From contig JABDAM010000003.1 of assembly GCA_013289145.1 (NCBI GenBank), positions 27,301 through 91,300 on the forward strand: a DNA stretch of 64,000 nucleotides. The letters run 5' to 3'. The notes under the pieces were generated by a model. That model was given only the letters and a program-made list of their open reading frames with translations. It did not search any database and was not told where the DNA came from. Positions 12,807 through 45,756 of the stretch are shown here, piece by piece. The stretch comes from Alphaproteobacteria bacterium. GTDB taxonomy: Bacteria > Pseudomonadota > Alphaproteobacteria > UBA11073. Position 1 is the first letter of the stretch, and each line of letters opens with the position of its first letter. A program made the position numbers and the translations under genes.

Positions 12807-12877
12807 AAGGTGTCCTGCGCATGTATATAACAAGGGAAAGGCGCAAGTAAAAAGAAAAAAGTGATGTGGTTGTCATC

Positions 12878-12997
12878 TGTCATCCCGGCCGTAGCGCGCA
12901 AGCGCGAAGAGCCGGGATCCCATGAAGGATAATATCTGACCGTCAGGAGATCCCGGATAGCAGCTGCGCTAAGCTCCGCTAGCTTCCGGGATGACAG
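12878..12997. repeat. Nested palindromic element of the GTCAYCCCGG family (copy 1)
   Basis: The termini ctgtcatcccgg (12878..12889) and ccgggatgacag (12986..12997) are inverted repeats. Each half contains its own hairpin (atcccggc...gccgggat and atcccgga...tccgggat). Confidence 0.75.
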
Positions 12998-13000
12998 TTG

Positions 13001-15357: not shown

Positions 15358-15494
15358 GAATGGAGGATATCAGGTTTTAGGGGGGAAACTCAATTATCCA
15401 GGGTGCAACTATTTAAATTGCTTGCAAAACGGACAATGGATGTTTTACGGTTGCCCATAACCACCTTATTTAAACCTAATTTAGGAGAATTTTG

Positions 15495-16637
15495 ATGTTG
15501 GAGAATAGAGAACTTAAGCGCGCCGCGGACCAATTTGCCGAAGTATCAGGGCAGCCAAAAGATAACTTGAATTTTATACATACGACTGAAGGCAGATATC
15601 TTCTCGTTTTTCTGCCGAATGATGGCGAGCCCCGTATGCTGGGAGCTGTTCATTGGCACAATTTAGGCTGTTCAATTAATGGCCATAGGATTGATGATGA
15701 ATATTTTGAAGGCGATCAAGGTTTGAATCGAACCTCGCGCGGAAAAGCATTGAAAGTGTTTTTTGAATTATGCGCCCAAAAAATAACAGATCAAACAGTA
15801 TACGTTCCCTCTCTGCTCGAAAATCCTTATGAATGGGATAATGTTTACCTGGATGCTTTTAATGTGGTGAAGAGCTCCCGCCTTGCAAATGCAATTGATC
15901 GCTTCGCTGAAATATCAGGTTTAGCAAAGGAAAACATCCACTTTATCCATAAATTTTACGGTGGCGGCTACTACGATCTTCATGTTGCACAGCCCGACGG
16001 ATCCTTTGTTAAGCTGGGTGAGGTTTATCAATCTGTGCTGTGTTGTTCCATGAATGGGGATAATGAATTTGACCGTTATCTGGCCGATGGAGGGGTTGGT
16101 AATAACGCCCGCGGTCGTGCGTTGGATGCATTCTTTAAATTATGTGCTGCAAAAATAACAGATCCGGGTATCAAAGTTAATAGTTTGCTTGGAAATTCTG
16201 AAATGTGGTCTTCAGAGTATCTGGAGGCTGCTATGCCTACGCAGGCTGAAGCGCGGGAAGCGTGGGAACAGTTGCAATCTGGTGCGCCACGGCTGGTCAA
16301 TAACGATGGCTCTTTGGTTGGAGGCGATCCGCAGAACTTTTTAGGAAGATCCATTGAGGATAACAAAATGGTTATTTACAAATGGGTGCAGGCAGTGGGC
16401 GGAACGCTAACGGCGATCGGCGCGAATAAATTTGAAGCGGGCTTATGGGGAGCAAAAACAAAGGCGGACGAAATTAATTTCAACCGTGCAGGCGCTATGC
16501 AGCGCAGGCTGGGTTTTGTGACGCCCTCTGCCTTGCGCGCGGAAATGCATGTTCCTGACGCCGACCAGTTGAATAAAAAAGCTTTCCGCCAGGCACAATA
16601 CCGGGCCGCCGCTGCAATCTGCGCTTACCCTGGATAA
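15495..16637 (+). CDS. Hypothetical protein with an internal tandem domain duplication
   Basis: The ATG at 15495 lies 7 nt after AGGAG. Two colinear repeats of roughly 115 aa are present (FAEVSGQPKDNLNFIH...RGKALKVFFELCAQKITD and FAEISGLAKENIHFIH...RGRALDAFFKLCAAKITD). The gene is AT-richer than its flanks. Confidence 0.6.
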   Translation: MLENRELKRAADQFAEVSGQPKDNLNFIHTTEGRYLLVFLPNDGEPRMLGAVHWHNLGCSINGHRIDDEYFEGDQGLNRTSRGKALKVFFELCAQKITDQTVYVPSLLENPYEWDNVYLDAFNVVKSSRLANAIDRFAEISGLAKENIHFIHKFYGGGYYDLHVAQPDGSFVKLGEVYQSVLCCSMNGDNEFDRYLADGGVGNNARGRALDAFFKLCAAKITDPGIKVNSLLGNSEMWSSEYLEAAMPTQAEAREAWEQLQSGAPRLVNNDGSLVGGDPQNFLGRSIEDNKMVIYKWVQAVGGTLTAIGANKFEAGLWGAKTKADEINFNRAGAMQRRLGFVTPSALRAEMHVPDADQLNKKAFRQAQYRAAAAICAYPG

Positions 16638-16975: not shown

Positions 16976-17344
16976 TTATAGCTTGCTCGGCGGGTAGTCC
17001 TGCATCAGCTCCCGGATTCTGCCGCGCAAAGGCAAAAGAACGTCAATAGCGAAATTCCACGCCATCTGCACATTGATATGAAAATATTCATGAATAAATT
17101 CATTGCGCGTATCCACCAAATCAAGCCATGGAATATCAGAAGCAATTTGATCGATTTGATGGTTGCGGAGCAAATGCCGGCTAGCTTCGCCGATGACTTC
17201 GATGGTTTTAATAAAGGCCAGCCGACGTTCGATGCTATTTTCAATTTCTTGCCGTCCGTCGCGGGTCAGCATTTCCAGCCAGCTTAATGCTGCGTCGACG
17301 TCAAACAACCAGTTGAATATTTGCCGCTGCGATGATTTTTTCAT
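16976..17344 (-). CDS. hepT: HepT-type HEPN toxin (DUF86)
   Basis: 122 aa with the Rx4HxY motif (RNEFIHEY) and IEVIGEA. It overlaps the upstream MNT gene by 4 nt. Confidence 0.8.
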   Translation of the reverse strand: MKKSSQRQIFNWLFDVDAALSWLEMLTRDGRQEIENSIERRLAFIKTIEVIGEASRHLLRNHQIDQIASDIPWLDLVDTRNEFIHEYFHINVQMAWNFAIDVLLPLRGRIRELMQDYPPSKL

Positions 17345-17661
17345 ATGGCGGTGATGTCGTCCGCGATTTCATCCTGAATGCGGATCAGGCTGGGCGGGCT
17401 GGCCAGATCGACTTGGCGGCCGAGAAAAGTTTGTAATGCGCGTTTAAGGCGCACCAAATCCAGATAGGAACGGTCGGGGGCAAAGTCGGCAATCATATCG
17501 ATATCGCTGTCTGGGGTTTCTTCGCCACGCGCGACAGAGCCGAAGACGCGCAGATTGCTGGCGCCATATTGTGCCGCAAGTTCCGTAATTTCATCTCGGC
17601 GGGTTTTGATTTGCTCAAGCAGCATGAGCTTAATTATATCAAAGCTTGCCGCAAAAGCCAA
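17341..17661 (-). CDS. mntA: MNT-type nucleotidyltransferase antitoxin
   Basis: GS-x10-DxD motif FGSVARGEETPDSDIDM. The start is ambiguous: a TTG at 17661 lies 10 nt after the nrdB stop, and an ATG lies at 17625. Confidence 0.8.
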   Translation of the reverse strand: MAFAASFDIIKLMLLEQIKTRRDEITELAAQYGASNLRVFGSVARGEETPDSDIDMIADFAPDRSYLDLVRLKRALQTFLGRQVDLASPPSLIRIQDEIADDITAI

Positions 17662-18682: not shown

Positions 18683-19105
18683 TTAATTCCGTTTGTTGAG
18701 TTGTTGAACTTTTTGTTTGAGAAGCTGATAGCCTGCATTTAGCAGGGTTGAATAGTCTTTCTCAATATGTTGGCTAATTTTTTCTAAATCAGGCGGGGAG
18801 TATTCATGTGCTAGCGTATTTCGGTCACTGTGCATTTCAAACCAGCCTTCGCTTTTAGGAAGAAGGCCATTTGTCATGCCAATTTCCAAAGTCTCTTTGG
18901 GGAAATTGCTTTTAGGTTCGTCCAGGTAAGCAATAATAAGCCTAGTCAACTGCCGTGTCATTTCATAGGCAAGACGAAAGCGGCTGGCTAATGCTTCGCG
19001 GTATAATTTGTTTTCGCGTTCTGCTTCAATCGCATTCAAATCCTGAATGGCGGCTGTCAGGTCTGTGAAAACTTCATTAATCAGTTCAAGGCGTTCAGCG
19101 GACAT
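18683..19105 (-). CDS. HEPN nucleotidyltransferase-substrate-binding protein (HI0074-like), putative toxin
   Basis: Rx4HxY motif RNTLAHEY. The ATG at 19105 is preceded by GGGAGAG; the ORF track's TTG start is at 19129. It overlaps the MNT gene upstream. Confidence 0.75.
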   Translation of the reverse strand: MSAERLELINEVFTDLTAAIQDLNAIEAERENKLYREALASRFRLAYEMTRQLTRLIIAYLDEPKSNFPKETLEIGMTNGLLPKSEGWFEMHSDRNTLAHEYSPPDLEKISQHIEKDYSTLLNAGYQLLKQKVQQLNKRN

Positions 19106-19427
19106 AAAGCGCTCTCCCTTCTTTTTCAATTATTTTTCTTAAAGCTGGGCGCGCGTGCGCCAGATTAACGCAGTCGATTTTCGCCAGCTTATCTGACGCA
19201 TTCACAATATCCGTCAGTTTCCGCCATATGACGTGATCTGCGGTTGAATCCATTTCAAAGGCCAAATCCACATCCGAAAATTTATGAATTTTTCCAGTTG
19301 CATAGGAGCCAAATAAAACAATTTTCATAATTTGCGGAAAAACCAGTGCTAGATTACGCACAATCTCCCGCAGCCAGGGCTCAAGCCCTTCGTCGTTAAT
19401 CGTAATGGTGCGGGTTTCGGTGAGCAT
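19095..19427 (-). CDS. Nucleotidyltransferase (HI0073/MNT-like), putative antitoxin
   Basis: 110 aa with the motif LFGSYATGKIHKFSDVDLAFE. Confidence 0.75.
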   Translation of the reverse strand: MLTETRTITINDEGLEPWLREIVRNLALVFPQIMKIVLFGSYATGKIHKFSDVDLAFEMDSTADHVIWRKLTDIVNASDKLAKIDCVNLAHARPALRKIIEKEGRALYVR

Positions 19428-19467
19428 GGTTAATTTCTAGGTTAAGCCTATATAGTCTTTCTCTATT

Positions 19468-19568
19468 TGTCACCCCGGCCTTGTGCCGGGGTCTGTCTCG
19501 ACGTTAGGGCGATGCTTCAGAATGTGTGATTGCGGCGCCGCAGACCCCGGCACAAGGCCGGGGTGACA
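19468..19568. repeat. Nested palindromic element of the GTCAYCCCGG family (copy 2)
   Basis: tgtcaccccggccttgtgccggggtctg (19468..19495) is a perfect inverted repeat of cagaccccggcacaaggccggggtgaca (19541..19568). Each arm is itself a hairpin (ccccggc...gccgggg). Confidence 0.85.
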
Positions 19569-19574
19569 GACCTT

Positions 19575-21907: not shown

Positions 21908-22444
21908 TTAGCGGGGTATGTGAGGGACTTCCTGTGGTTTTTGAGCCGCAGAGATTTGAATCCTGCCTTTGGAATCAGTGGTCAGTTTTTTCGCCTTAAT
22001 CCATTCCGCAACTTTTTCCGCAAAGGCTCCTTGCGGTTCTTGGGGATTATCACTCGTGCGGACTTCGCGGACTTGTTCCAAAGTCATCCCTTTTACCATC
22101 GCGCCGAAAATCCGGTTTCGTTGTGGATGATCGCCTTCTTTGGGTCTGGGGTCACCAGCATCCTCTTTGCTGCCTAAAAGATAATCAGCCAGAGTTATCC
22201 AAAGGCGGGTATTTTCGACGTTTAATGCCGCAACTCTTTGTCCTGGTGTTTTTGAATTTAGATATTCAACGATCGCATTCGCATAAGTTTCAGAGTTCAA
22301 ATTTTTCTTTCCATCAGGATCGCCGGCCAAAGTGCGAAAGAGAACGTTGAAAGAGATCTGCCCAGAAGGGCCGCATTTTGACGTAATTTGATGCGTCGCC
22401 AAATATCCGGCCATAAGGCTGGAACAACGTTTTAATATGCCCAT
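21908..22444 (-). CDS. Hypothetical protein (orphan)
   Basis: 178-aa open frame, AT-richer than its neighbours, with its own downstream hairpins. I recognise no motif. Confidence 0.5.
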   Translation of the reverse strand: MGILKRCSSLMAGYLATHQITSKCGPSGQISFNVLFRTLAGDPDGKKNLNSETYANAIVEYLNSKTPGQRVAALNVENTRLWITLADYLLGSKEDAGDPRPKEGDHPQRNRIFGAMVKGMTLEQVREVRTSDNPQEPQGAFAEKVAEWIKAKKLTTDSKGRIQISAAQKPQEVPHIPR

Positions 22445-23360: not shown

Positions 23361-24179
23361 ATGAGCTTTAGAGACTGGCGCCGCAGGGCGGCTGCGCATT
23401 TTCGCCGCAAGGATACGGAACTGCTGGGTTATGAAGATCTTTCAAATTATTCCGGATTTGATTGGAGCACTGCACAGCCCCAAAAGTTGAAAAATCCAAA
23501 ATATGATGCGCTGTTTGGAAAATTAATGAATAACCAACTGGATGAAGAAGCTCGCGCAATCATAGATAATATGATCCATGATTATACTAATATTGACTAT
23601 AAGACGCCCGATGAAAAGATTATTCCCTGGGCAAGATTGCAAACTCAAATGTTTAAATTTGCTGCCAAAGACTGGCCGCAAGAGGTGCGAACTTATAAAT
23701 TAACACTGGAAAGTTTGACGCTTGAAAAGCCGATAAGGGTGAAGGAGAAAAAAGCATTTCCAGTCGTGCTGGATATTGAAGGTTTTACCTATGATACAGA
23801 AGAGTTGGAGCAAACCTGGGGCGTTAAGCAGGCAAGGCGTAAAGGGGCAGAGGAAAGCCTTGCCGGGGGTAAAGACAAAATGTTGGCAGAAGGTAATCTG
23901 GGTGGTTTGTCGTTTTGGGAAGGCGTGCGGCCTTCAAGTGAATCTGAAGAGCGGATTGCCAGATTTGAGAGAGAAATTGATAAAACCCAAATTTTTCTGA
24001 TTCCGTCCGGGGCGGTTATTTTACGTATGCAACTAACCGCAAACGATGCCGCGCCGAACCCGTATCAACAAAATTTCTATCTCATCCGCGAGCCGGAGTA
24101 TCTGGAGCCGTTTTTCGGCGTTGCGCCGCAGCCGGTTGTGCCCAAGGGGCCCGTGGTAGCGCCGCCGGTGCCGGTTTAG
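23361..24179 (+). CDS. Hypothetical protein, paralog A of a tandem pair
   Basis: 272 aa, colinear with ORF 24326..25135 (RRAAAHFRRKDTELLGYEDLSNY and LEPFFGVAPQPVVPKGPVVAPPVPV). AGGAG lies upstream of the start. Confidence 0.65.
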   Translation: MSFRDWRRRAAAHFRRKDTELLGYEDLSNYSGFDWSTAQPQKLKNPKYDALFGKLMNNQLDEEARAIIDNMIHDYTNIDYKTPDEKIIPWARLQTQMFKFAAKDWPQEVRTYKLTLESLTLEKPIRVKEKKAFPVVLDIEGFTYDTEELEQTWGVKQARRKGAEESLAGGKDKMLAEGNLGGLSFWEGVRPSSESEERIARFEREIDKTQIFLIPSGAVILRMQLTANDAAPNPYQQNFYLIREPEYLEPFFGVAPQPVVPKGPVVAPPVPV

Positions 24180-24325
24180 CGGCTAGGCCGAACGCACCAT
24201 TTTTTCTGGTTGGAGCTTGCCTCGCGAAGCCCTGGGTTGGGGGCAACGTAGCATCCCAAAAAACTTGCTTTTTGCCCGGGCTGTTTGGTAAAAGTACGCA
24301 ATCATACTTAACAGGAGGTTATCAC

Positions 24326-25135
24326 ATGGGCTCTAGAGATTTGAATCATAAACGGGCTGCGCGTTTTCGCCGTGAAGATACAGAGCTTGTCGGATTCGAC
24401 GGGTTGGCAAACTATTTTGACTGGAACGGCGCGGATGTCGTGACATTTAAGGACGCACAGCATGCAAAAGTTTTTCAACAATTGGTCGGTAATAATTGGA
24501 GTTTTGAGGACGAGGATGCGTCTGCCGATTTAGATAAAATATCAAGTCAAACGATTGATGAAGATATCCTTGAAAGCGCCAAAATAGCAGTGGAATTCTT
24601 TCTGGGCGCATCAGACGAATGGCCTGAAGAGGCAAAAAAATATACACTTACACTAGATAAAATCGTAATCGATAATCCGATTAGAATTAAATGGGCGTAT
24701 AAAGGCAATATGACAAATCTGAATATTAAAGGTTTTATTTCTGACGAAGAAAGCATTGAAATGACTTGGGAAGATAAAATGGCCAGACGTAAACACCAAG
24801 AGAAAACATCAGATGAGGCCAAGGATGAATCATTGATGGCAGGTAACTTAAGACATTTATCCTCTCTTGAAAAAGTTTTCCCCAGTGACGAAAAAGATGA
24901 ACGCGTTGAAGGATTCCGCAGGGAATTTGCTGTTTCCAAAATATATTTCGTCACATCGGACGCGCACATTCTGCGATTGCGTTTGCGGGGGCCTGACAAT
25001 GCGCCGAAGTCCTATGAACGCAACATCTATTTCATCCGCGATCCGGAACAATTGGAGCCGTTTTTTGGCGTTGCGCCGCAGCCGGTTGCGCCCAGCGGGC
25101 CGGTTGTAACGCCACCTCCGCCGGTGCCGGTTTAA
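24326..25135 (+). CDS. Hypothetical protein, paralog B of a tandem pair
   Basis: The start is set at MGSRDLNHKRAARFRREDTELVGFDGLANY (AGGAGG upstream); the ORF track starts at 24272. The C-terminus LEPFFGVAPQPVAPSGPVVTPPPPVPV matches paralog A. Confidence 0.65.
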   Translation: MGSRDLNHKRAARFRREDTELVGFDGLANYFDWNGADVVTFKDAQHAKVFQQLVGNNWSFEDEDASADLDKISSQTIDEDILESAKIAVEFFLGASDEWPEEAKKYTLTLDKIVIDNPIRIKWAYKGNMTNLNIKGFISDEESIEMTWEDKMARRKHQEKTSDEAKDESLMAGNLRHLSSLEKVFPSDEKDERVEGFRREFAVSKIYFVTSDAHILRLRLRGPDNAPKSYERNIYFIRDPEQLEPFFGVAPQPVAPSGPVVTPPPPVPV

Positions 25136-25196: not shown

Positions 25197-25538
25197 CTAA
25201 TCACCCAAATGATCCGGCCAATGCATCGCCGTGTGCAAAATACGGATGATGCGGATGCCGCCGTCGATTTGCCGGTATAAAATGCGGTGGCCGTGCGCGT
25301 TGCGGCGCTTGCGGAATTTGGCGATATAGATGCGGATGCCGGGATGGCCGGTGGCGGGTTTGCCAAGGTGCGGGTCGTTGGCCAATTCCGCAAAGATATT
25401 ATCCAGGAACGCCATATAGCGTTCGGCCTGAATTTTACCCCACATGCGGGCGGTGGTTTTATCAATGGCCGTGAATTCTGCTGCCGCGGCGGGCGAAAAA
25501 TCGATTAATGCGCCGTTTCGGCAATCATGCTCCGCCAT
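25197..25538 (-). CDS. parE: RelE/ParE-family toxin
   Basis: 113 aa with a ParE-like pattern (IDFSPAAAAEF..I......GKIQAERYMAFLDNIF..LANDPHLGKP....PGIRIY......HRILYRQIDGGIRIIRILH). It overlaps the upstream antitoxin gene. Confidence 0.7.
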   Translation of the reverse strand: MAEHDCRNGALIDFSPAAAAEFTAIDKTTARMWGKIQAERYMAFLDNIFAELANDPHLGKPATGHPGIRIYIAKFRKRRNAHGHRILYRQIDGGIRIIRILHTAMHWPDHLGD

Positions 25539-27190: not shown

Positions 27191-27661
27191 TTATGGCTGT
27201 AGGTCGCGGTTAGGGAGTGAACCAAACAGTATGTTATGCATTTGTGCAGCAGCAGCCCTGAGGTATTCATGCCCCCCGCGATCTATTAGCGCGGTAAGGA
27301 TTTCCTGTATTTTGGGCCGGTCTTTATCTTTCCAAAAGTGTCCGCGGAATTTGTCTTGATCGTTCGTAAGCCAGCTATATATCGCAAAGCATGTTTTAGA
27401 ATCCGGATCCGTGCCGAGCCGAGTGACGATTTCAGCGTCCATTTCCAGGGAAGCATACCCGATCAATCGAAAGCAGGCTGTTCTGTTGTCCGAATGTTCG
27501 CCATCCAGAAGGGCGCGGATAAATTGCTCTCGTTCTTCTGACGTTAATTGATCGGATTTATCGCGGAATGAATCGATTGCTCCTTGCCGCGTGAAGCGTT
27601 CCACGGAATGCGATTGCTCGATCAGGTCTTGTAATAGCGCAGATGGGCGAGGGATGGTCAT
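27191..27661 (-). CDS. Hypothetical protein
   Basis: 156 aa. It starts 2 nt after the stop of the upstream ORF 27664..28422, so the two probably form an operon. I recognise no motif. Confidence 0.5.
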   Translation of the reverse strand: MTIPRPSALLQDLIEQSHSVERFTRQGAIDSFRDKSDQLTSEEREQFIRALLDGEHSDNRTACFRLIGYASLEMDAEIVTRLGTDPDSKTCFAIYSWLTNDQDKFRGHFWKDKDRPKIQEILTALIDRGGHEYLRAAAAQMHNILFGSLPNRDLQP

Positions 27662-27663
27662 AT

Positions 27664-28422
27664 TCAGGCGCGCGGGGCCAGCGCGGCGGGTTGGTGTTTC
27701 GCGGGCACAAAGCGCGGTTGCCGCTGCATGGACCAGGCGGACATGTTTTGCTGGAATTTATAGTAATGATCGAAATCGGGAATTTGATACTCGCTGTCCA
27801 GGCAAAAACCGATGGTCGTCATTTTGCCGCTTTTGCAATCGAAAACCATTTGAACGGATGTGGCGGGCGCATCCTCGCCCGCCGGAAGATCGAGGTTTAT
27901 GCCCTTTAGGCTTTTTTGAGAATATGCCAGATGGCTGAGGCTGGTTTTGATATTCCTGTCTCTCATCAGGTTACACAGATAACTTTGAAAATGATCGATG
28001 CCGGTGAAGGGGGAAAATTTTTTCAGGCTTGCTGTGCCCGGATAGGGGCCGGCGAGTTTTTTTCCTTTAAACAATTCTTCAAACGCAGTCTGGAATTTTC
28101 CGGTTTGAGAGGCGTTTAAAGTTTCCCGGAAATTCAAAGCCGGAACACAGGATGTAATGAAATCCACAGTGACAAAAGGCGCTTCCTTTGAGTGCTCGCT
28201 GATGGTGACCGTCAGGTGATTTGCTTTTTGTTCTGAAAAAACCGTCGAAAAAGACAGCTTGGAAATGGAATAGCCCGCATCTTTCCAGGCGGGTTGGGTA
28301 AGCATGGTTTTGATAATCCCCAGCGCGTCGGGGGCGGATATGGCGGTTGGGCTGTTAGCCTGCGCGCCCGCCATCGCGGCGGCGGCAGAGAGCGCAAGAG
28401 CGGCGGAAAGTCTGGATCGCAT
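27664..28422 (-). CDS. Hypothetical secreted protein
   Basis: 252 aa with signal peptide MRSRLSAALALSAAAAMAGAQA. Confidence 0.55.
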   Translation of the reverse strand: MRSRLSAALALSAAAAMAGAQANSPTAISAPDALGIIKTMLTQPAWKDAGYSISKLSFSTVFSEQKANHLTVTISEHSKEAPFVTVDFITSCVPALNFRETLNASQTGKFQTAFEELFKGKKLAGPYPGTASLKKFSPFTGIDHFQSYLCNLMRDRNIKTSLSHLAYSQKSLKGINLDLPAGEDAPATSVQMVFDCKSGKMTTIGFCLDSEYQIPDFDHYYKFQQNMSAWSMQRQPRFVPAKHQPAALAPRA

Positions 28423-28605: not shown

Positions 28606-29124
28606 ATGGCAAAAGCCGCTAAAAAGGATTTGAAAACAGCTAAAACTTCGGCTGATGCGCGCTCCGCGCGCCGGGCCAATACCCGCGAACGGGCGGAGCG
28701 GGCAACGCGCAAGATGGCGGCGCGGGAGCCGGTGGTTGAAACGCAGTCGCTGCGGCCGACGCGGGATATAGAGGGTTTGCAGAAAATCGCGCGTTTGATG
28801 AGCGGGCTGTCGCTGCGCGCGGCCAATGCTTATGCGGATGCGCGGATGGGCGAAGGCGACAAATATGTCCGCATCGCCGCCGCCGGATATCGTGAAGCCA
28901 TGGGAATTTTCGATGAAATTATTAAGGCCAATCGCGTCTTGAAGGAAGCCGAGCGCGAGCATTTAATAACAGTCATGAATGGCATCAAATTACTGCACGT
29001 GCGCATCCAGGATTATAACGTCGCCTGCAAGGATGAAGCATGGCGCCGCGAACACCAGGAAGAATGGAACCCGCACCCGCTGGGCGAGGATAAGCAGGGG
29101 TTTTTTGCGAAGGAACGGTTTTAG
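28606..29124 (+). CDS. Hypothetical protein (basic N-terminus)
   Basis: 172 aa with AGAGGA upstream of the ATG. The stop codon abuts the octamer-array repeat. Confidence 0.55.
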   Translation: MAKAAKKDLKTAKTSADARSARRANTRERAERATRKMAAREPVVETQSLRPTRDIEGLQKIARLMSGLSLRAANAYADARMGEGDKYVRIAAAGYREAMGIFDEIIKANRVLKEAEREHLITVMNGIKLLHVRIQDYNVACKDEAWRREHQEEWNPHPLGEDKQGFFAKERF

Positions 29125-29240
29125 TAGACGAGCGGACGAGCAGACGAGCGGACGAGAATAAAAAATTTCGTATGAGAGATTCATTTCATACATAAACCGC
29201 CAGAAAATCTCGTCTACGCGTCCGCTCGTCCGCTCGTCTG
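29125..29240. repeat. Inverted octamer-array element (copy A, intergenic/3'-terminal)
   Basis: The left arm is tagacgag-cggacgag-cagacgag-cggacgag (29125..29156). The right arm is ctcgtcta-cgcgtccg-ctcgtccg-ctcgtctg (29209..29240). The spacer is 52 bp. Confidence 0.85.
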
Positions 29241-30146
29241 CTGGATCGCCTCATCCAGTTTGTGATCCTCAATCCCCGCCGGTTCCTGGTGCAAAATGAT
29301 TTGCGCGGTGGGGTAGCGGCGGCGCAGGGCGTCTTCGAGCATTTCGGTGATGTGGTGGGCGTCGTGCAATGTCAGGTCGCCGGGCATTTCGACGTGGGCG
29401 TCGATGAAAACGTCGGGGCCAGACTGGCGCGTGCGGAGGTCGTGCATGCCGGAGACGCCGTGGTGCGCCAGGATGATTTCGGAAATGATGTGGCGGTCTT
29501 CGTCTTTCATTTCCTTGTCCATCAATTGCTCTGCCGCGCCGCGCGCGAGCTTCCAGGCGGAGAATAAAATATAAAATGAAATCAGCATCGACGCCGCGCC
29601 GTCGAACCGGTCAAAGCCCATGCCGGATATCAGTAGGGAAATAATCACGACGATGTTGACCAGCATATCGTTCATGTAATGCAGAAAATCCGCCTTGATC
29701 GACATGCTGTGCGTGCGGTCGACGACGCGGTGCTGGTAGATCAGCAATGCTAAAATCAGCACACTGGAAATAACCATGATGGTGATGCCGATAGGGGTCG
29801 ATTCCACCGGCTCGGGGGAGAGCAGGCGGGAAAAGGATTGAATTAGAAAATAAATTCCAGATCCCGCGACGAATGCCGCCTGCCCCAGGGTGACGAGCGG
29901 TTCAGCCTTGCCATGGCCCCAGCGGTGGTTTTTATCCGGCGCGCGGTGCGCGACGCGCAGGGCGTAAAAAGCCGTCGCGGCGGCGATGGCATCGCCGACG
30001 GATTCCAGCATGGATGCCAGCATCACGAGCGCATTGGTCTGAAAATAGGCGTACAATTGCAGTGCAATAATCGTCAGGCCCACGGCCAGGCTGACCAGGG
30101 CGGCTTTTTGGGTTTGGTGTCCGCGTTCGCGGTGGGAGAGGGACAT
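29214..30146 (-). CDS. Cation diffusion facilitator (CDF) family metal efflux transporter
   Basis: 310 aa with six TM helices and a C-terminal cytoplasmic domain (CzcD/FieF-like). The last residues QQTSGRADA and the stop codon are encoded by the repeat arm. Confidence 0.85.
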   Translation of the reverse strand: MSLSHRERGHQTQKAALVSLAVGLTIIALQLYAYFQTNALVMLASMLESVGDAIAAATAFYALRVAHRAPDKNHRWGHGKAEPLVTLGQAAFVAGSGIYFLIQSFSRLLSPEPVESTPIGITIMVISSVLILALLIYQHRVVDRTHSMSIKADFLHYMNDMLVNIVVIISLLISGMGFDRFDGAASMLISFYILFSAWKLARGAAEQLMDKEMKDEDRHIISEIILAHHGVSGMHDLRTRQSGPDVFIDAHVEMPGDLTLHDAHHITEMLEDALRRRYPTAQIILHQEPAGIEDHKLDEAIQQTSGRADA

Positions 30147-33267: not shown

Positions 33268-34038
33268 TTACGGGCTGGGGCCGCCGCGTCCGCCCTTATA
33301 ACCGCTGCGTCCTTGGCGGGATCCTTGAGTGGATTTCCCAGAACCGCTTCCTTGATTTTTTGCGTCATAGGCTGCTTTGCGTTGCGCCACATGATCCGCT
33401 TTAGGATCGATTTCTTCCGGTTTCCAGTTCTTATCTTCAGTTTTAATTCTTGAAGTTTTTCCCATTTCCTCAATCGCAGTAGGGTGATGTGTATGTGAGG
33501 CAGCTCGTTCAGCTTTTGCTTTTTCTCGTGCCGCTGTATCCTGATCGATCTGTTGTTTGGTAATCGCCGCTTGTTCAGCAGAAACACCCGCATCTTTATG
33601 TGCTGCAAGCATGACGTCCGTAACGATACTTCCGATTTCATTCCAGGGGCGCGGTTGCTCTCCATAAATACTTCTGATTGGGTTATGCATGACGCTGGTC
33701 GCGTGTTTGTCGGAGGTTAATCCGTCGCTTGCCTTAGGCAGTTTGGACCATCCGTGCAGCAGCTTTTGTATAACCTGAATAAACTTAGGTAAGTTTTGAA
33801 AATTGCCTATCTGGTTGTAATCGCTGGGCGATTGGATGTCGAATGTATACATTCTGGGTTCATCCGCCGTGGAAATTCTTAACCACCATATATTGTTTTC
33901 ATAAGGCAGTGAAACCCAGGCAATGCTTCGATTATTGAAGGCCGGGGTGGCTGGGTTATTGGGATCCGGCGTAACCCGCAAATCTTCGCCATTAATCTTC
34001 ATGGTGGCGGGGAAGAAAGAATTTATTTGTTGAGACAT
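33268..34038 (-). CDS. Hypothetical protein (orphan) with a Lys/Gly-rich C-terminal tail
   Basis: 256-aa open frame, AT-richer than its flanks. The tail reads KNQGSGSGKSTQGSRQGRSGYKGGRGGPSP. Confidence 0.5.
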   Translation of the reverse strand: MSQQINSFFPATMKINGEDLRVTPDPNNPATPAFNNRSIAWVSLPYENNIWWLRISTADEPRMYTFDIQSPSDYNQIGNFQNLPKFIQVIQKLLHGWSKLPKASDGLTSDKHATSVMHNPIRSIYGEQPRPWNEIGSIVTDVMLAAHKDAGVSAEQAAITKQQIDQDTAAREKAKAERAASHTHHPTAIEEMGKTSRIKTEDKNWKPEEIDPKADHVAQRKAAYDAKNQGSGSGKSTQGSRQGRSGYKGGRGGPSP

Positions 34039-38113: not shown

Positions 38114-38557
38114 TCAGATCAAGCGCACAAAGTAGTTTTGAACAGACGCAAAATCGTAATAGTAACCCTGCCATCCGGCGCGTTTTGCCGTTGCGCTCAA
38201 TGCTTTTCTTGCTTTGAATATTTCAGGTTTCTGAAGGTCTGAGGGCAGATAGTAAACGGCAATTTCCTTTCCGTTTATCAAAACCAAAAATAACGGAAAA
38301 TATATTCCTGCCGCCATCCTTTCGGATTGCGGCTTCCAGGCCGCGGATAAAACCCGTTTGGGCGGTTTTTGAATGTCTTTGACGTTTTGTGTTTTGACTT
38401 GCGCCAAATAGCCGCAGAAATCACATATAATATCAGCGCATTTGAAATTGGGCGGCAGCAATTTTAATGTTTGCGAACGTTTGCACCTGGGACAGGCGCA
38501 TTTTTTTGCAATGAGCTGTTCCCCTCGTTTCCCCAGTTCTTGTTTGGCTGTTGCCAT
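38114..38557 (-). CDS. Hypothetical Cys4 zinc-ribbon protein, possibly a PD-(D/E)xK-like nuclease
   Basis: 147 aa with GKRGEQLIA, then CxxC-x19-CxxC (CPRCKRS...CDFCGY), then ADIICD...AQVK, which resembles a D...(E/Q)xK motif. Confidence 0.45.
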   Translation of the reverse strand: MATAKQELGKRGEQLIAKKCACPRCKRSQTLKLLPPNFKCADIICDFCGYLAQVKTQNVKDIQKPPKRVLSAAWKPQSERMAAGIYFPLFLVLINGKEIAVYYLPSDLQKPEIFKARKALSATAKRAGWQGYYYDFASVQNYFVRLI

Positions 38558-38669
38558 TTAACACTCCGAACGTGTGCATATTCATTAAATGCCCGGTGGG
38601 GGCTTTGCCAAGGTATTGATTTGTAATAAATTAGGCAAATCACTTATCTCGAAGAACCCGAGGAACCCC

Positions 38670-41372
38670 ATGGCTGTTAATACTCCGCATCACGATACTT
38701 TGGCGACACGATCGACTTTGGAGGTCGGCGGGAAAAAGTACGCTTATTACTCATTGGAAAAGGCGGCGGAGGCTTTGGGCGATATTTCGCGCCTGCCGTT
38801 TTCGATGAAGGTTTTACTGGAATGCCTGTTGCGGACCGAGGACGGCGTGGCGGTGCAGCAAAAGGATATCCGCGCGCTGGCGGCCTGGCTGAAGGAGCGC
38901 CGCAGCGACGATGAAATTCAATTCACGCCCGCGCGCGTGTTGATGCAGCACTTTACGGGTGTGCCCGCCGTGGCGGATTTGGCCGCGATGCGCGATGGCA
39001 TTACGAAATTGGGCGGCAAGGCTTCGCAAATCAATCCGCTGGTGGCCGTTGATCTGGTCATCGACCATTCGGTGATGGTGGATGAATTCGGCTCGCCGCG
39101 CGCGTTTGAACGCAATGTGGATATCGAATTCGAACGCAATGGCGAGCGTTATGAATTCCTGCGCTGGGGCCAGAATGCCTTTAAAAACTTCCGCGTCGTG
39201 CCGCCGGGCACGGGGATTTGCCACCAGGTGAATTTGGAATATCTGGCGCAGACCGTCTGGACGCGCGAGGAAGAGGGCGGCGATATCGTAGCATATCCTG
39301 ATACGCTGGTGGGCACCGACAGCCATACGACAATGCTAAATGGCCTGGCTGTGTTGGGCTGGGGCGTCGGCGGGATTGAGGCTGAGGCCGCGATGCTCGG
39401 CCAACCGACATCGATGTTAATTCCAGAGGTGATCGGATTCAAATTGCATGGTTCGCTGCGCGAAGGCGTGACGGCGACGGATTTGGTTTTGACGGTCACG
39501 GAAATGCTGCGCAAAAAAGGCGTGGTGGGTAAGTTTGTGGAATTTTACGGCGCGGGATTATCGAACCTGTCGCTTGCAGACCGCGCGACGATTGCGAATA
39601 TGGCGCCGGAATATGGCGCGACGTGCGGTTTCTTCCCGATTGATGCGGAAACCATTCGTTATCTGTCCTTCACCGGCCGCGATCCGCATCGCGTGGCGCT
39701 GGTTGAGGCTTATGCGAAACGTCAAGGTTTGTGGCGTTATGATACCGATGCCGATCCGGAATTTACGGATACGCTGGAACTGGATTTGGGTAATGTGAAA
39801 TCCTCCGTCGCCGGCCCGCGCCGTCCGCAAGACCGCGTGGAATTGGAAAACGTCGCCGCCGCGTTTGAAAAGGAAATGCCGACCCTGGGCGTAACGCCGG
39901 AGGTGCGCGAGAAAACCGTCGCGGTTGAAGGCACGGGATATAATATCAAACACGGCGACGTCGTCATCGCGGCGATTACATCATGCACCAATACTTCAAA
40001 CCCATCCGTGATGATCGCGGCGGGATTGGTCGCGAAAAATGCGGCGGCGAAGGGATTGAAAGTTAAACCGTGGGTGAAAACTTCACTTGCGCCCGGATCG
40101 CAAGTCGTGACGGATTATTTAAATCAGGCGGGTTTGACGGAGCCGTTAAACCAGCTTGGGTTCAATCTGGTGGGTTATGGCTGCACGACCTGCATCGGCA
40201 ATTCCGGCCCGCTGCCGGATCACATTTCCAAGGCGGTTGAGGCGGGCGATTTATGTGTCGCTTCCGTCCTGTCCGGCAATCGAAATTTCGAAGGCCGCGT
40301 CCAGCAACAGGTGAAGGCAAATTATCTGACATCGCCGCCGCTCGTTGTCGCATACGCGCTGGCGGGTTCGGTGCTGGTGGATTTGACGAGCGCGCCGCTG
40401 GGCAGCGACGGCAAAGGCAATCCGGTTTACCTGAAGGACATCTGGCCGACGAATGAAGAAATTCTGAATGCCATGACACAAAGCCTGACGCCGGAAATGT
40501 TCAAATCGCGTTACAGCAATGTGTTTGTCGGGCCGAAACAGTGGCAGACTTTACCGACGGCGAAAGGTGAGACTTACAGCTGGGTTGAAAAATCCACTTA
40601 CGTCAAACAGCCGCCGTTTTTTGAAGATATCGCGAATACCAATACCAATGCGGCGGCGGACATCACCGGCGCGCGGGCGCTCGCGATTTTGGGCGACAGC
40701 GTGACGACCGATCATATTTCCCCGGCGGGCAATATCAAAAAATCCAGCCCGGCGGGTGAGTATTTGATTGCGCACGGCGTTGAGCCGATTGATTTCAACT
40801 CTTACGGCGCGCGGCGCGGGAACCATGAAGTGATGATGCGCGGGACGTTCGCGAACATCCGCATCAAAAACGAAATGGTGCCGGGCGTTGAAGGCGGCGT
40901 GACTAAATACCTGCCGACCGGCGAACAAATGGCGATTTACGATGCCGCGATGAAATATCAGGCAGACGGCACGCCGCTGCTCATCATCGCGGGCAAAGAA
41001 TACGGCACGGGTTCATCGCGCGACTGGGCGGCGAAGGGGACAAAGTTGCTGGGCGCGCGCGCAGTGATTGCGGAAAGCTTTGAACGGATTCACCGCTCCA
41101 ACCTCGTCGGCATGGGCGTTTTGCCGCTGCAATTCCCCGACGGCGTCACGCGTAAAACGTTGGAACTGCAAGGTGATGAAACTTTCGCGCTGACCGGCAT
41201 TTCCGCGGGGATTAAACCGAAGATGAAAGTCAACCTGGAAATCCGCCGCGCCACCGGCCAAACGGAAACCGTGCCGCTGATCTGCCGCATTGATACGCTG
41301 AACGAGGTTGGATATTACCTGTCGGGCGGTATTTTGACCTTCGTTTTGCGCCACATGGCGAAGCGGGCATAA
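38670..41372 (+). CDS. acnA: Aconitate hydratase A
   Basis: The start is set at [11 protein letters not shown]; the ORF track starts at 38589. Fe-S ligand motifs are present ([18 protein letters not shown]), with full-length AcnA colinearity. Confidence 0.95.
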
Positions 41373-43018: not shown

Positions 43019-44434
43019 ATGGCGATTGATATTCTAATGCCCGCTTTATCGCCTACGATGACCGAGGGCAAAATCGCCCGTTGGTTGGTGAAGGAGGGCG
43101 ACGCGATTAAATCCGGCAAAGTCCTATGCGAAATCGAAACCGATAAAGCCACGATGGAAGTTGAGGCGGTGGATGAGGGTACGCTGTTAAAAATCGTCGT
43201 GCCGGAAGGCGCGGAAGGTGTTGCGGTGAATAGTGTGATCGCGGCGCTGGGCGCGAAGGGCGAAGTATACGAGCAGACGAGCAGACGAGCAGACGAGCAG
43301 ACGAGAAAAAGTACTGATGCCGTCGCGAATGCCCCTGTTATTGATCCGGGGTGTATTCCTGGAATGTCGCCCGCCAACCAAACGCAACAAATCTCGTCTG
43401 CTCGTCTGCTCGTCTGCTCGTCTGCTGATGAGGAAAAATTCTATTCTGGCGGCACGAAAACCATGACCGTGCGCGAAGCGCTCCGCGAAGCCATGTCCGA
43501 AGAAATGCGCCGCGACCCGACCGTGTTTTTAATGGGTGAAGAAGTCGCGGAATATAACGGCGCGTACAAAGTGTCGCAGGGCATGCTGGATGAATTCGGC
43601 CCAGAGCGCGTGATTGATACGCCGATTACCGAAATGGGTTTCGCGGGTCTGGGCGTTGGTGCGGCGTTTGGCGGCCTGAAACCCATTGTTGAATTTATGA
43701 CAATGAACTTTTCGATGCAGGCGATTGACCACATCGTGAATTCCGCCGCCAAGACATTATATATGTCCGGCGGCCAGATGGGTTGCCCGATTGTTTTTCG
43801 TGGTCCCAACGGCGCGGCGGCGCGCGTGGGTGCGCAGCACAGCCAATGTTTCGCGTCCTGGTACGCGCATATTCCAGGCCTGTATGTGCTGGCGCCGTGG
43901 AACGCGGCGGACGCGAAAGGCCTGATGAAGGCCGCGATCCGCAATCCAAACCCCGTCGTGTTTTTGGAAAACGAAATCATGTATGGCCAGTCGTTCGAAG
44001 TGCCGGTGCATGATGATTTCGTCCTGCCCATCGGCCGCGCGAAAATTGAACGCGCGGGCAAGGATGTCACCATCGTCGCTTACGCCATCATGGTGGGCAA
44101 GGCGTTGCAGGCGGCGGAAGAATTATGGAAACTCGGCATCGATGCGGAGGTGATTAACCTGCGCTCCATACGTCCGCTCGACGTTGAAACCATCGCCGCG
44201 AGTGTGCGCAAAACCAACCGCCTGGTGAGCGTTGAAGAAAGCTGGCCGTTTGCCGGCATCGGCTCCGAAATGGCGGCCTTGATGATGGAGCATTGTTTTG
44301 ATGATCTCGACGCGCCGATTGCGCGCGTATGTCATAAGGATGTGCCGTTGCCCTATGCCGCGAACCTGGAAAAACTCGCCTTGCCGCAGATTGAAGATAT
44401 CGTCGCGGCCGCGCGGGGAGTTTGCAACCGATGA
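43019..44434 (+). CDS. pdhB: Pyruvate dehydrogenase E1 beta subunit with an N-terminal lipoyl domain
   Basis: A lipoyl domain ([14 protein letters not shown]) is followed by a linker and then the E1-beta core ([15 protein letters not shown]...). The linker is encoded by the octamer-array repeat. Confidence 0.95.
43267..43427. repeat. Inverted octamer-array element (copy B, in frame inside pdhB)
   Basis: Four perfect cagacgag units (43274..43305) face four perfect ctcgtctg units (43393..43424) across an 87-bp spacer. This is a 32-bp perfect inverted repeat. Confidence 0.9.
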
Positions 44435-45756
44435 GCATCGAAATTTTAATGCCCGCCCTGTCGCCGACGATGACGGAGGGGAAACTCGCGCGCTGGCTGG
44501 TAAAGGAAGGCGACGAAATTAAATCCGGAAAAGTTTTGTGCGAAATTGAAACCGACAAAGCGACCATGGAAGTTGAGGCGGTGGATGAGGGGACATTATT
44601 AAAAATCGTCGTGCCGGAAGGCAGTGAAGGCGTTGCGGTGAATTCAGTGATTGCGGCATTGGGCAAGGCTGGAGAAAAGTACGAAGCTAAGCAGACGAGC
44701 GGACGAGCAGACGAGCAGACGAGCAAGCCTGCAGCTGCATTAACACCACTTTCAAATATTTCCGCCCAATCATCGCAAGCACTATCACAAGATTTCGTCT
44801 ACTCGTCTGCTCGTCTGCTCGTCACTAACCAAGGCCGCATCGCTGCGTCACCCGTCGCAAAACGCATCGCGCAGGAACGCGGCGTGAATTTATACGCCGT
44901 CATCGGTACGGGCCCGAACGGGCGGATTGTGAAGGAAGACGTGTTGAACGCGGTTCAGCAGACGAGCAGACGAGCAGACGAGCAGACCAGTGCAACAAAA
45001 TTGCCTACGCCAGCGCAAGCGATTCCTGCCGCTGCCGCAGGGCCGAACGCGAAACAACTCGCAGATTTGCTTGGCCAGAAATATACCGAAGTTAAAAATT
45101 CGCCCGTCCGCAAAATCATCGCCAAACGCCTGACGGAATCCAAACAAACAGTGCCGCATTTTTATCTGACGGTGGATTGTGAACTCGATGCGCTCCTGGC
45201 CGCGCGCAAAGCGTTGAATGAAAAAGAAAACGCCAAGATTTCCGTCAACGACGCGATCATCAAGGCGGTCGCCCTGGCACTGCGCGAAGTGCCCGCCGCC
45301 AACGCCGCCTGGACGGAAGAGGCGATTTTGAAATATACCGATGTGGATATTTCTGTGGCGGTCGCCACGGCGGACGGTTTGGTCACGCCGATTATAAAAG
45401 GCGCGGACGGCAAAAGCCTGGTGCAAATCTCAACCGAAATGCGCGACTTGGCCGCCCGCGCGCGCGACAATAAATTAAAACCCACCGAATTCCAGGGCGG
45501 CGGATTTACGATTTCCAACCTCGGCATGTTCGGCATCAAAAATTTCGCGGCCATCATCAACCCGCCGCAGGGTTGCATCCTGGCCGTCGGTGCTGGCGTG
45601 AAAAGCGCGGTGGTAAAGGATGATAAACTTGCGATTGCAACGGTGATGAACGTGACGCTATCAGTCGATCACCGCGTGGTGGACGGCGCCGTGGGCGCGG
45701 AATTTTTGGCGGCGTTTAAGAAATTGATTGAAGCACCGTCAGTGTGGGTTAAATAA
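44431..45756 (+). CDS. pdhC: Pyruvate dehydrogenase E2 (dihydrolipoamide acetyltransferase)
   Basis: The ATG overlaps the pdhB TGA (ATGA). It has a lipoyl domain, a PSBD ([16 protein letters not shown]) and a catalytic domain ([10 protein letters not shown]). Confidence 0.95.
44692..44823. repeat. Inverted octamer-array element (copy C, in frame inside pdhC linker 1)
   Basis: The left arm is cagacgag-cggacgag-cagacgag-cagacgag (44692..44723). The right arm is ttcgtcta-ctcgtctg-ctcgtctg-ctcgtc (44794..44823). Confidence 0.9.
44959..44990 (+). repeat. Solo octamer array (copy D, in frame inside pdhC linker 2)
   Basis: Three perfect cagacgag units plus cagaccag. No inverted partner lies nearby. 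Confidence 0.8.

What the first reader, a model, noticed from the sequence alone, without database searches (positions are those of the whole stretch)
29125..29240. Intergenic copy of the octamer-array element supplies stop codons and a hairpin for two convergent genes
Four octamer units on each side are separated by a 52-bp spacer that has its own small hairpin (gtatga...tcatac). The plus-strand ORF ends with TAG at 29122..29124, immediately followed by the variant unit TAGACGAG. The minus-strand CDF transporter reads through the right arm (QQTSGRADA) and stops on the TAG created by another TAGACGAG variant (cta at 29214..29216). The element has thus remodelled the C-terminus of a transporter and could act as a bidirectional terminator. 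This non-pdh copy is what makes the repeat look like a dispersed family rather than a pdh-specific feature.
Basis: seen in the sequence. Interest (0 to 1): 0.7.

Follow-up and report, generated by a model that had tools for sequence, protein, structure and literature searches.

The report
Octamer-armed palindromic repeat between convergent genes
A 116-base hairpin whose two arms are each four copies of the 8-base word CAGACGAG sits between two convergent genes of an uncultured alphaproteobacterium. It belongs to a small dispersed family of selfish-looking palindromic repeats, and its sequence turnover has lengthened the tail of a metal transporter by five amino acids.

Summary
Window 29125-29240 holds four YRGACGAG octamers, a 52-nt spacer and four inverted octamers, and it folds at -70 kcal/mol.

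It is a member of a dispersed family:
- Three more arrays lie in frame in the pdhB and pdhC linkers of this window.
- Three inverted-array loci lie in a second, more distant alphaproteobacterial genome. Two are intergenic and one is in frame in a Sua5/TsaC-like gene.

The copy at this site is old. A syntenic relative (CDF 86% identical) has a degenerate 4+4 octamer hairpin at the same boundaries. A more distant relative has the two genes overlapping by 4 nt with no hairpin.

In the syntenic relative the transporter (CDF) stops at the native TAA, inside the right arm. In the window the units are regularised to CRGACGAG and that stop is gone. Translation therefore runs on to a TAG in the innermost unit, giving the tail QTSGRADA.

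The plus-strand gene's TAG lies just outside the first octamer unit and is conserved in the syntenic relative.

No U-tract follows the hairpin on either strand, so a terminator role is unproven.

The best reading is a REP/RPE-like palindromic repeat with an unusual foldback architecture (tandem-octamer arms, variable loops). Interest is moderate.

The parts
29123..29156 (+). Left arm: AG plus four octamers (TAGACGAG CGGACGAG CAGACGAG CGGACGAG). It starts directly after, and pairs 2 nt into, the TAG stop of the plus-strand gene.
29157..29208 (.). 52-nt A+T-rich spacer (the loop). It begins AATAAAAAA, like the 8-nt loop TAAAAAAA of the syntenic relative. The remaining ~44 nt are absent from the relative.
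29170..29191 (.). Small inner inverted repeat GTATGA(GA)...(TT)TCATAC. On the minus strand it is followed by a T6 run. It is weak and not significant against shuffles.
29209..29242 (-). Right arm: four octamers read on the minus strand (CAGACGAG CGGACGAG CGGACGCG TAGACGAG), preceded by AG (CT on the plus strand).
29217..29240 (-). Arm-encoded C-terminal tail of the CDF transporter: CAG ACG AGC GGA CGA GCG GAC GCG = QTSGRADA.
29214..29216 (-). CDF stop codon TAG, supplied by the innermost TAGACGAG variant unit of the right arm.
29214..30146 (-). CDF / FieF-like cation efflux gene (Cation_efflux plus ZT_dimer domains), 310 aa.
28606..29124 (+). Conserved 172-aa gene of unknown function, convergent with the CDF gene. 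Orthologues are 172 aa in L001 and 168 aa in L134. Its stop is TAG at 29122-29124.
43266..43426 (+). Family member in frame in the pdhB (E1 beta) lipoyl linker. It has a 5-unit left arm, an 87-nt spacer that encodes the natively conserved [13 protein letters not shown] core, and a 4-unit right arm.
44692..44823 (+). Family member in frame in pdhC (E2) linker 1. It has a 4-unit left arm, a 70-nt spacer and a ~3.75-unit right arm. The right arm replaces the conserved native PVMMRE.
44959..44990 (+). Solo forward array (4 units, no inverted partner) in frame in pdhC linker 2. It is orthologous to a (CAGACCAG)4 array in relative L128.

Best explanation
The segment is one copy of a small family of palindromic ('foldback') DNA repeats found in a clade of uncultured Alphaproteobacteria. 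Each member has two inverted arrays of 3-5 copies of the octamer CAGACGAG (variants CGGACGAG and TAGACGAG). The arrays flank a loop that differs between copies and ranges from 14 to 87 nt among the GACGAG-type copies, and is 8 nt in the degenerate L001 copy.

I read the family as a REP/MITE/RPE-like genomic passenger and not a gene-specific regulatory device. A pure (CAGACGAG)n array has no stop codon in any of the six frames. It can therefore sit in permissive coding segments (PDH linkers, a Sua5 surface loop) as well as between genes.

Shown for this copy:
- A hairpin with 4+4 octamer arms arose between two abutting convergent genes, before the window lineage split from relative L001.
- The right arm overlaps the last codons of the CDF gene.

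Inferred for this copy:
- In the window lineage the arm units were later regularised to the CRGACGAG type by concerted evolution.
- That regularisation erased the native TAA, so translation continues five codons further to a TAG in the innermost unit.
- At the RNA level, the ~32-bp stem at the 3' end of both convergent transcripts most plausibly acts like a REP hairpin. It would be a barrier to 3' exonucleases and perhaps a roadblock to read-through. It is unlikely to be a canonical intrinsic terminator.

The means of spread is unknown. It could be a trans-acting enzyme or recombination and template switching.
For: - Exact structure and significance.
- Other copies in the window are in frame in pdhB and pdhC.
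- A genome-collection scan found inverted octamer pairs only in OZ251979.1. L022 lies downstream of dnaK with a 65-nt loop. L033 lies downstream of a ligase with a 14-nt loop. L089 is in frame in a Sua5/TsaC-like gene. All but L089 have strong fold z-scores.
- The Sua5 copy is a net insertion of about 19 aa relative to solved Sua5 homologues. This fits insertion as a unit.
- History of the site:
  - L134 has overlapping convergent genes and no hairpin.
  - L131 ends GAG GCG AAG AAT TAA with no hairpin.
  - L001 has 4+4 degenerate octamers with its TAA at the native position.
  - The window has regular units and a tail extended by five codons.
- Concerted evolution:
  - Unit position 5 is C in 8 of 8 units in the window but in 1 of 8 in L001.
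  - The E2 linker-2 array is (CAGACGAG)3 plus CAGACCAG in the window and (CAGACCAG)4 in L128.
- The array is open in all six frames.
- Relatives carry other palindromic families in frame in the same PDH linkers. These linkers are therefore landing pads, as described for Rickettsia RPEs (PMC10969869).
- No Rfam family matches.
Against: - No target-site duplication is visible at any copy.
- The loops are unrelated in sequence.
- In pdhB and pdhC the arms flank or overwrite conserved native sequence with little or no net length gain. A simple cut-and-paste element would not do this.
- No transposase or RAYT was found among the 20 window ORFs scanned.
- Known copy number is low: 4 loci in 64 kb here and at least 3 in OZ251979.1.
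- Only two further hairpins turned up in the metagenome scan, and one of them is clearly a different element.
- No expression data exist, so any RNA-level role is inference.
Confidence: 0.55

Rival explanations
1. The hairpin is a functional bidirectional transcription terminator, or 3'-end processing signal, that has been kept by selection between the convergent CDF gene and the 172-aa gene.
For: - The stem is very stable on both strands.
- It lies exactly between two convergent stop codons.
- A hairpin has been retained at the same boundaries in a relative at 86% protein identity.
- On the minus strand, the loop contains a small hairpin followed by T6.
Against: - No U-tract follows the large stem on either strand. 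The scan finds no terminator-like site there, although that scan only covers loops of 3-8 nt.
- The loop is 52 nt.
- The inner hairpin is no better than shuffles on the CDF strand.
- Relatives manage with overlapping or abutting convergent genes and no hairpin.
- The same structure sits inside essential coding regions.
Confidence: 0.2
2. The arrays are not mobile. They arise in situ by slippage from local CAGAC-like words. The inverted partner is then created by intrastrand template switching (quasi-palindrome correction), and gene conversion between loci keeps the units alike.
For: - The arms replace native sequence without a net gain in length.
- Relatives have CAGAC/CAGAA-like words where the arrays start. 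Examples are L122 CAGACCGA in E2 linker 2, P0127 YQQTK in pdhB, and L131 GCGAAGAA at the CDF end.
- A solo array exists.
- Unit changes occur in concert.
Against: - The same octamer occurs at unrelated loci in two genomes whose pdhB proteins are only 75% identical. Local birth does not predict this.
- The Sua5 copy is a net insertion.
- The evidence for microhomology rests on 5-nt words and could be chance.
Confidence: 0.15
3. The octamer arrays are binding or recombination sites for a sequence-specific protein. Examples would be inverted sites that allow inversion of the enclosed segment, or a structural or regulatory DNA- or RNA-binding protein.
For: - The octamer is conserved across divergent genomes, while the loops are free to vary.
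- The geometry of inverted arrays around a variable segment resembles invertase sites.
Against: - No recombinase lies nearby among the ORFs scanned.
- The copies inside essential genes would yield nonsense linkers if inverted.
- No inverted-spacer allele was seen in relatives.
- The arms vary in unit number and type.
Confidence: 0.07
4. Assembly artefact or chance repeat.
For: None beyond the general risk that repeats pose in metagenome assemblies.
Against: - An independent assembly is identical over 8.9 kb.
- Homologous structures occur in other samples and genomes.
- Zero matches are expected in shuffles.
Confidence: 0.01

Closest known systems
Rickettsia palindromic elements (RPEs)
   Same: - Alphaproteobacterial palindromic repeats of about 100-150 bp.
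- They occur both between genes and in frame inside unrelated, often essential, protein-coding genes at structurally permissive sites (PMC10969869).
- Here that pattern is seen in pdhB, pdhC and a Sua5-like gene.
   Different: - RPE families have a conserved full-length sequence that encodes a conserved peptide.
- Here only the arms are conserved, they are tandem octamers, and the loops are unrelated.
- Sequence similarity to RPEs was not tested.
- The host genomes are not Rickettsia (G+C 50-53%; the pdhB homologues that carry a source name are Reyranella or Niveispirillum, at about 70% identity).
REP / REPIN / BIME elements (with RAYT transposases)
   Same: - Inverted doublets that form long hairpins.
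- Typically found at the 3' ends of genes and between convergent genes.
- Vertically persistent, with no target-site duplication.
- Thought to stabilise mRNA 3' ends (PMC3337134 and PMC3116915, listed).
   Different: - Each REP is itself a short imperfect palindrome, whereas the octamer arrays are not.
- REPINs have conserved spacers and hundreds of copies, are extragenic, and are accompanied by a RAYT gene.
- None of these features was found here.
Bacterial MITEs (Correia, ERIC, BOX/RUP/SPRITE)
   Same: - Small non-autonomous repeats with terminal inverted repeats.
- Their transcripts are strongly folded.
- They occasionally give in-frame fusions and terminator-like effects (PMC10969869).
   Different: - MITEs have target-site duplications and a conserved internal sequence derived from a parent IS.
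- Neither feature is seen here.
Rho-independent (intrinsic) terminators, including bidirectional ones
   Same: A G+C-rich stem located between convergent genes.
   Different: - No 3' U-tract on either strand.
- A stem of about 32 bp and a 52-nt loop, against the usual 5-15 bp stem and 3-8 nt loop.
Eukaryotic Foldback (FB) transposons (from my own knowledge; not tested)
   Same: The architecture matches: long inverted arms built from short tandem subrepeats, enclosing a variable middle segment.
   Different: They are eukaryotic and kilobase-scale, with no evidence of relatedness. This is an analogy of form only.

Membership tests
Intrinsic (Rho-independent) terminator | Stable G+C-rich stem-loop | tested here: met
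   -70.2 and -65.5 kcal/mol, z = -9.7 and -8.7. The stem and loop are far larger than is typical.
Intrinsic (Rho-independent) terminator | Run of U immediately 3' of the stem, on each transcribed strand | tested here: not met
   The 3' flank is GCTGGATCGCC on the plus strand and CTAAAACCGTT on the minus strand. The scan reports no site at the element, although that scan only covers loops of 3-8 nt.
REP / REPIN | Two inverted repeat units separated by a spacer and forming a long hairpin | tested here: met
REP / REPIN | Each unit is itself a short imperfect palindrome | tested here: not met
   The arms are direct tandem octamers with no internal dyad symmetry.
REP / REPIN | Extragenic location and high copy number | tested here: not met
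   Three of the four window loci and one of the three OZ251979.1 loci lie inside coding sequence. Only a few copies were found. Whole genomes could not be read.
REP / REPIN | A cognate RAYT (Y1 transposase) gene in the genome | not testable with these tools
   None was found among the 20 window ORFs scanned. The rest of the genome is not available.
MITE | Terminal inverted repeats | tested here: met
   32-40 nt inverted arms
MITE | Target-site duplication flanking the element | tested here: not met
   The flanks of the copies read show no direct repeats. The only constant is the partial unit AG...CT, which is part of the palindrome.
MITE | Conserved internal sequence shared by the copies | tested here: not met
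   The loops are 8, 14, 14, 52, 65, 70 and 87 nt long and unrelated in sequence. The pdhB loop is native linker sequence.
Rickettsia palindromic elements | Palindromic repeat inserted in frame into unrelated protein-coding genes at permissive sites | tested here: met
   PDH linkers and a Sua5 loop with about 19 extra residues relative to solved structures
Rickettsia palindromic elements | Sequence similarity to one of the described RPE families, and a conserved encoded peptide over the whole element | not tested
   No RPE library was on hand, and Rfam gave nothing. Only the arm-encoded peptides (QTSRRADE and LVCSSARL) recur.

The most novel reading that the evidence does not exclude
The octamer-armed palindromes are a previously undescribed kind of bacterial foldback element. 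Their arms are installed on both sides of pre-existing sequence and are then kept uniform across loci. The agent would be an unknown, octamer-specific, non-cut-and-paste mechanism, such as hairpin- or microhomology-primed templated synthesis or conversion. This would explain three things at once: why the arms overwrite conserved native linker residues without adding length, why unit types switch in concert, and why the same 8-mer is shared by genomes that are otherwise only about 50-75% identical at the protein level.
Probability: 0.15. Interest if true: 0.75.

Novelty: new variant of a known kind. Interest (0 to 1): 0.45.

Why it matters
- **Precedent outside Rickettsia.** If the family is what it appears to be, it extends the 'selfish palindromes inside protein-coding genes' phenomenon, best known from Rickettsia RPEs, to another uncultured alphaproteobacterial clade.
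- **New architecture.** The arms are tandem octamers that are open in all six reading frames. That property makes tolerance of coding sequence almost automatic.
- **A dated example.** The intergenic copy shows how turnover within such a repeat can rewrite a protein terminus. The native stop was lost and five residues were gained.
- **Annotation.** Arm-encoded peptides (QTSRRADE and LVCSSARL) and terminal extensions in MAG proteins of this clade come from repeats and are not functional motifs.
- **Mechanism.** The arms overwrite conserved native sequence. If confirmed, this would point to a mechanism of repeat spread that differs from transposition.

Tried and rejected
- **Rfam.** The whole window at gathering thresholds and the element at E <= 10 gave only a tRNA elsewhere and sub-threshold noise.
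- **Literature.** A full-text search for the array sequence found one unrelated oligonucleotide hit.
- **Genome-collection scan for three-unit arrays.** Nearly all were single tandem arrays in unrelated phyla (Streptomyces, Bacteroidales, myxobacteria and others). I treat those as unrelated simple octanucleotide repeats or coding repeats.
- **Metagenome scan for inverted pairs.** It gave two loci. L129 is a different long inverted repeat in a Bacteroidota-like contig. L130 is a similar octamer hairpin in a G+C-rich organism of unknown relation.
- **Peptide search.** A synthetic arm-encoded repeat recovered only short spurious ORFs and missed the window's own pdhB.
- **Search for a transposase or RAYT.** A Pfam scan of 20 window ORFs found none.
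- **Residual hairpins in the pdhB linkers of relatives.** None was found (z = -0.9 to +0.8). The idea that the relatives carry decayed arms is therefore not supported.
- **Protein-level selection for a QTSRRADE linker.** Rejected because the reverse arms encode hydrophobic, Cys-containing LVCSSARL, and because intergenic copies exist.

Full report
**1. The observation**

Window 29125-29240 reads as follows:
- TAGACGAG CGGACGAG CAGACGAG CGGACGAG
- a 52-nt A+T-rich spacer (29157-29208)
- CTCGTCTA CGCGTCCG CTCGTCCG CTCGTCTG

The last block is the reverse complement of four more units. Seven of the eight units fit YRGACGAG, and the eighth is CGGACGCG.

The repeat finder reports 35-nt arms at 86% complementarity. 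These include an extra AG/CT pair at the outer ends. Two-unit arrays with one mismatch allowed occur 21 times in the window against 0.01 expected, all at four loci. A three-unit search with three mismatches adds no further locus.

The plus-strand ORF 28606-29124 stops at TAG 29122-29124. The minus-strand gene 29214-30146 ends QQTSGRADA, with its TAG read from cta at 29214-29216. That gene is a Cation_efflux plus ZT_dimer transporter; the plus-strand ORF has no Pfam match.

As RNA the segment folds into one long stem, at -70.2 kcal/mol on the plus strand (z = -9.7) and -65.5 kcal/mol on the minus strand (z = -8.7). The inner GTATGA/TCATAC pairing exists, but it is weak and not clearly better than shuffles.

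An independent Logan assembly of another run is identical over 8.9 kb, including the element. The structure is therefore not an assembly artefact.

**2. The family in this window**

| Locus | Position | Structure | Encoded peptide |
|---|---|---|---|
| 43266-43426 | pdhB, linker after the N-terminal lipoyl domain | 5-unit left arm, 87-nt spacer, 4-unit right arm | [11 protein letters not shown] ... [11 protein letters not shown] |
| 44692-44823 | pdhC, first linker | 4-unit left arm, 70-nt spacer, ~3.75-unit right arm | |
| 44959-44990 | pdhC, second linker | solo forward array | |

All three are in frame. The three spacers are unrelated to each other and to the 52-nt spacer of the intergenic copy.

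A pure (CAGACGAG)n array contains no stop codon in any of the six frames. It gives the same cyclic peptide whatever the frame: QTSRRADE forward and LVCSSARL reverse. The TAGACGAG variant introduces a stop.

**3. The family elsewhere**

I scanned 185,579 species-representative genomes for three consecutive units. Almost all are single tandem arrays in unrelated phyla.

The only inverted pairs are in one genome, OZ251979.1. This is a 1.93-Mb alphaproteobacterial MAG chromosome whose CDF is 47% and whose pdhB is 75% identical to the window's.

| Locus | Context | Structure |
|---|---|---|
| L022 | downstream of dnaK | 4+4 units, 65-nt loop |
| L033 | downstream of a DNA ligase gene | 3+3 units, 14-nt loop |
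| L089 | in frame in a Sua5/TsaC-like gene | left arm of CTGAGGAG units, right arm of CAGACGAG units |

L022 and L033 fold strongly (z = -11.8 and -7.9), while L089 folds weakly. Against solved Sua5 structures, the L089 protein has about 19 extra residues exactly at the element. That copy is therefore a net insertion.

A metagenome scan for inverted pairs found only two more hairpins. One is a different element. The other (L130) is a similar octamer hairpin in a G+C-rich organism. Rfam and a literature search for the sequence gave nothing.

The family appears small and clade-restricted.

**4. History of the intergenic copy**

CDF homologues were collected and aligned. The closest are 305 aa and end IEQKS, IEAKN or IGQN. 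None of the 18 others has TSGRADA. Their DNA was fetched and the junctions compared.

| Locus | CDF identity | Junction |
|---|---|---|
| L134 | 63% | The orthologous convergent genes overlap by 4 nt; no hairpin. |
| L131 | 86% | Different neighbouring gene; CDF ends GAG GCG AAG AAT TAA; no hairpin. |
| L001 | 86%, fully syntenic | TAG, then a 4+4 octamer hairpin with the same boundaries as in the window. |

The L001 hairpin reads CTGAGGAG CGGAAGAG CTGACGGG CAGAAGAG, then TAAAAAAA, then CTCTTCAG CTCCTCCG CCCTTTAG CTCTTCTG. It has four units per arm and an 8-nt loop. It still folds (-35 kcal/mol, z about -4 to -5). Its CDF ends GAG CAG AAG AGC TAA, at the native stop position, inside the right arm.

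Shown:
- The hairpin arose after the split from the L134 lineage and before the split of the window from L001.
- From the start it overlapped the last codons of the CDF gene.
- In the window the corresponding unit reads CGGACGAG, with no TAA, and the ORF continues to the TAG of the innermost unit. This adds five residues.

Inferred:
- The change came about through concerted regularisation of the units. Position 5 is C in 8 of 8 window units but in only 1 of 8 L001 units.
- A second array shows the same behaviour. The E2 linker-2 array is (CAGACGAG)3 plus CAGACCAG in the window and (CAGACCAG)4 in relative L128.

The plus-strand gene keeps a native-looking C-terminus (FFAKERF, FFATKERF, FFARESY). 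Its TAG is the same in L001 and lies just outside the first unit. At most its AG could be element-derived.

**5. What the hairpin does**

No U-tract follows the large stem in either direction, and the loop is 52 nt. The consensus scan finds no terminator there, although that scan only covers loops of 3-8 nt.

On the CDF strand the loop holds a small stem followed by U6. That stem is no better than shuffled sequence, and the segment is missing from L001. Relatives function with abutting or overlapping convergent genes.

I therefore rate a dedicated bidirectional intrinsic terminator as possible but unsupported. A REP-like effect is the more conservative inference: a 3' hairpin that blocks exonucleases and perhaps impedes read-through. 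No transcript data are available.

**6. What kind of element it is**

The closest functional analogy is the Rickettsia palindromic elements. These are alphaproteobacterial palindromes that sit in frame in many unrelated genes (PMC10969869, read).

The PDH linkers of this clade are landing pads for several palindrome families:
- L122 carries a GTCACCCCGGC...GCCGGGG hairpin pair in frame in its E2 linker.
- L128 carries a long palindrome (its pdhB linker segment folds at -115.6 kcal/mol) in both its pdhB and pdhC linkers.

The octamer family fails several defining tests of the known classes:
- It has no target-site duplication and no conserved interior, so it is not a typical MITE.
- Its arms are not self-palindromic, it is not extragenic, and no RAYT was seen, so it is not a REPIN.
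- It has no U-tract, so it is not an intrinsic terminator.

Its form (inverted arms made of tandem subrepeats around a variable middle) resembles eukaryotic Foldback elements. That is an analogy drawn from my own knowledge.

**7. Unexplained**

In pdhB the spacer encodes [13 protein letters not shown]. This motif is conserved in six relatives that have no arms and no residual hairpin.

The linkers are hardly longer than in relatives: 52 against 41-49 aa in pdhB, and 44 against 43 aa in pdhC linker 1. The pdhC right arm replaces the conserved native PVMMRE.

The arms therefore flank or overwrite native sequence and do not arrive together with their spacer. Simple transposition does not predict this.

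Array starts also coincide with native CAGAC/CAGAA-like words in relatives. This hints at microhomology-primed conversion or template switching, but the words are short.

This is the basis of the more novel reading, to which I give 0.15.

**8. Verdict**

The object is a new variant of a known kind (REP/RPE-like palindromic repeats). The intergenic copy is ordinary in its likely role. It is informative about how repeat turnover rewrote a protein terminus, and the family has an unusual architecture and mode of occupation. Interest is 0.45.

Noticed in passing
window 19466-19570 and 51176-51312 (possibly also 12874-13000); L001 4118-4218; L033 2194-2278; L122 about 11634-11770: A second palindromic repeat family. 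It consists of nested hairpin pairs built on (GTCA)CCCCGGC-N4-6-GCCGGGG(TCTG), arranged as inverted doublets with 25-85 nt between them, much like REPINs. It occurs in the window, in relatives and in OZ251979.1. In L122 it sits in frame in the E2 linker, where it encodes NPVTPAKAGAQ...LDPGFHRDDG.
   Followed up: partly
L128 357-1775 (pdhB linker) and 2131-2937 (pdhC linker 1): A third palindromic element (CCTCCCCCTTGAGGGGGGAGG...CTCCCCCCTCAAGGGGGAG). The pdhB linker segment containing it folds at -115.6 kcal/mol. It is in frame in both PDH linkers of a relative at 86% identity, and encodes LPLEGGGG...SSPLKGEQ.
   Followed up: partly
window 43019-43260 versus 44431-44672: The lipoyl domains of pdhB (an E1 beta with an N-terminal lipoyl domain) and pdhC are about 92% identical in protein and about 83% in DNA. 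The octamer left arms sit at equivalent positions just after them. This suggests duplication or gene conversion between the two genes.
   Followed up: partly
L064, L109, L110, L034, L052, L021 (Bacteroidales/Prolixibacteraceae), L036 (Treponema), L111, L117 and others: Long simple tandem arrays of (CGGACGAG)n, (CGGACAAG)n or (CAGACGAG)n occur in many unrelated bacteria. They are mostly unpaired and are probably ordinary octanucleotide VNTRs unrelated to the inverted family.
   Followed up: no
window 16976-17661 and 18683-19427; 25197-25538: Two HepT-like RNase and nucleotidyltransferase (MNT) toxin-antitoxin-type gene pairs. There is also a ParE-toxin-like gene, identified from the Pfam annotation of L127.
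   Followed up: no
window 5565-6416, 15492-16637, 21908-22444, 23361-24179, 24272-25135, 27191-28422, 33268-34038, 48787-49596: A set of ORFs with no Pfam match, most with a low third-position G+C (0.42-0.50, against about 0.65-0.75 for housekeeping genes). They may be recently acquired or fast-evolving genes.
   Followed up: no
L126 11380-12222 and L128 1772-2134: In OZ251979.1, a 280-aa ORF of unknown function lies between pdhB and pdhC. In relative L128, a 120-aa ORF that looks membrane-associated lies there. Both are absent from the window's operon.
   Followed up: no
L129 390-630: A Bacteroidota-like contig carries a ~110-nt-arm inverted repeat built from TAGACAAG/CAGACGAG-like words, upstream of a BlaI/BlaR-type gene pair. 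It is a different element that was caught by the pattern.
   Followed up: no
window 38114-38557: A truncated-looking DpnI-like (Dam-replacing family) ORF of 147 aa, next to a long gene at 38589-41372.
   Followed up: no
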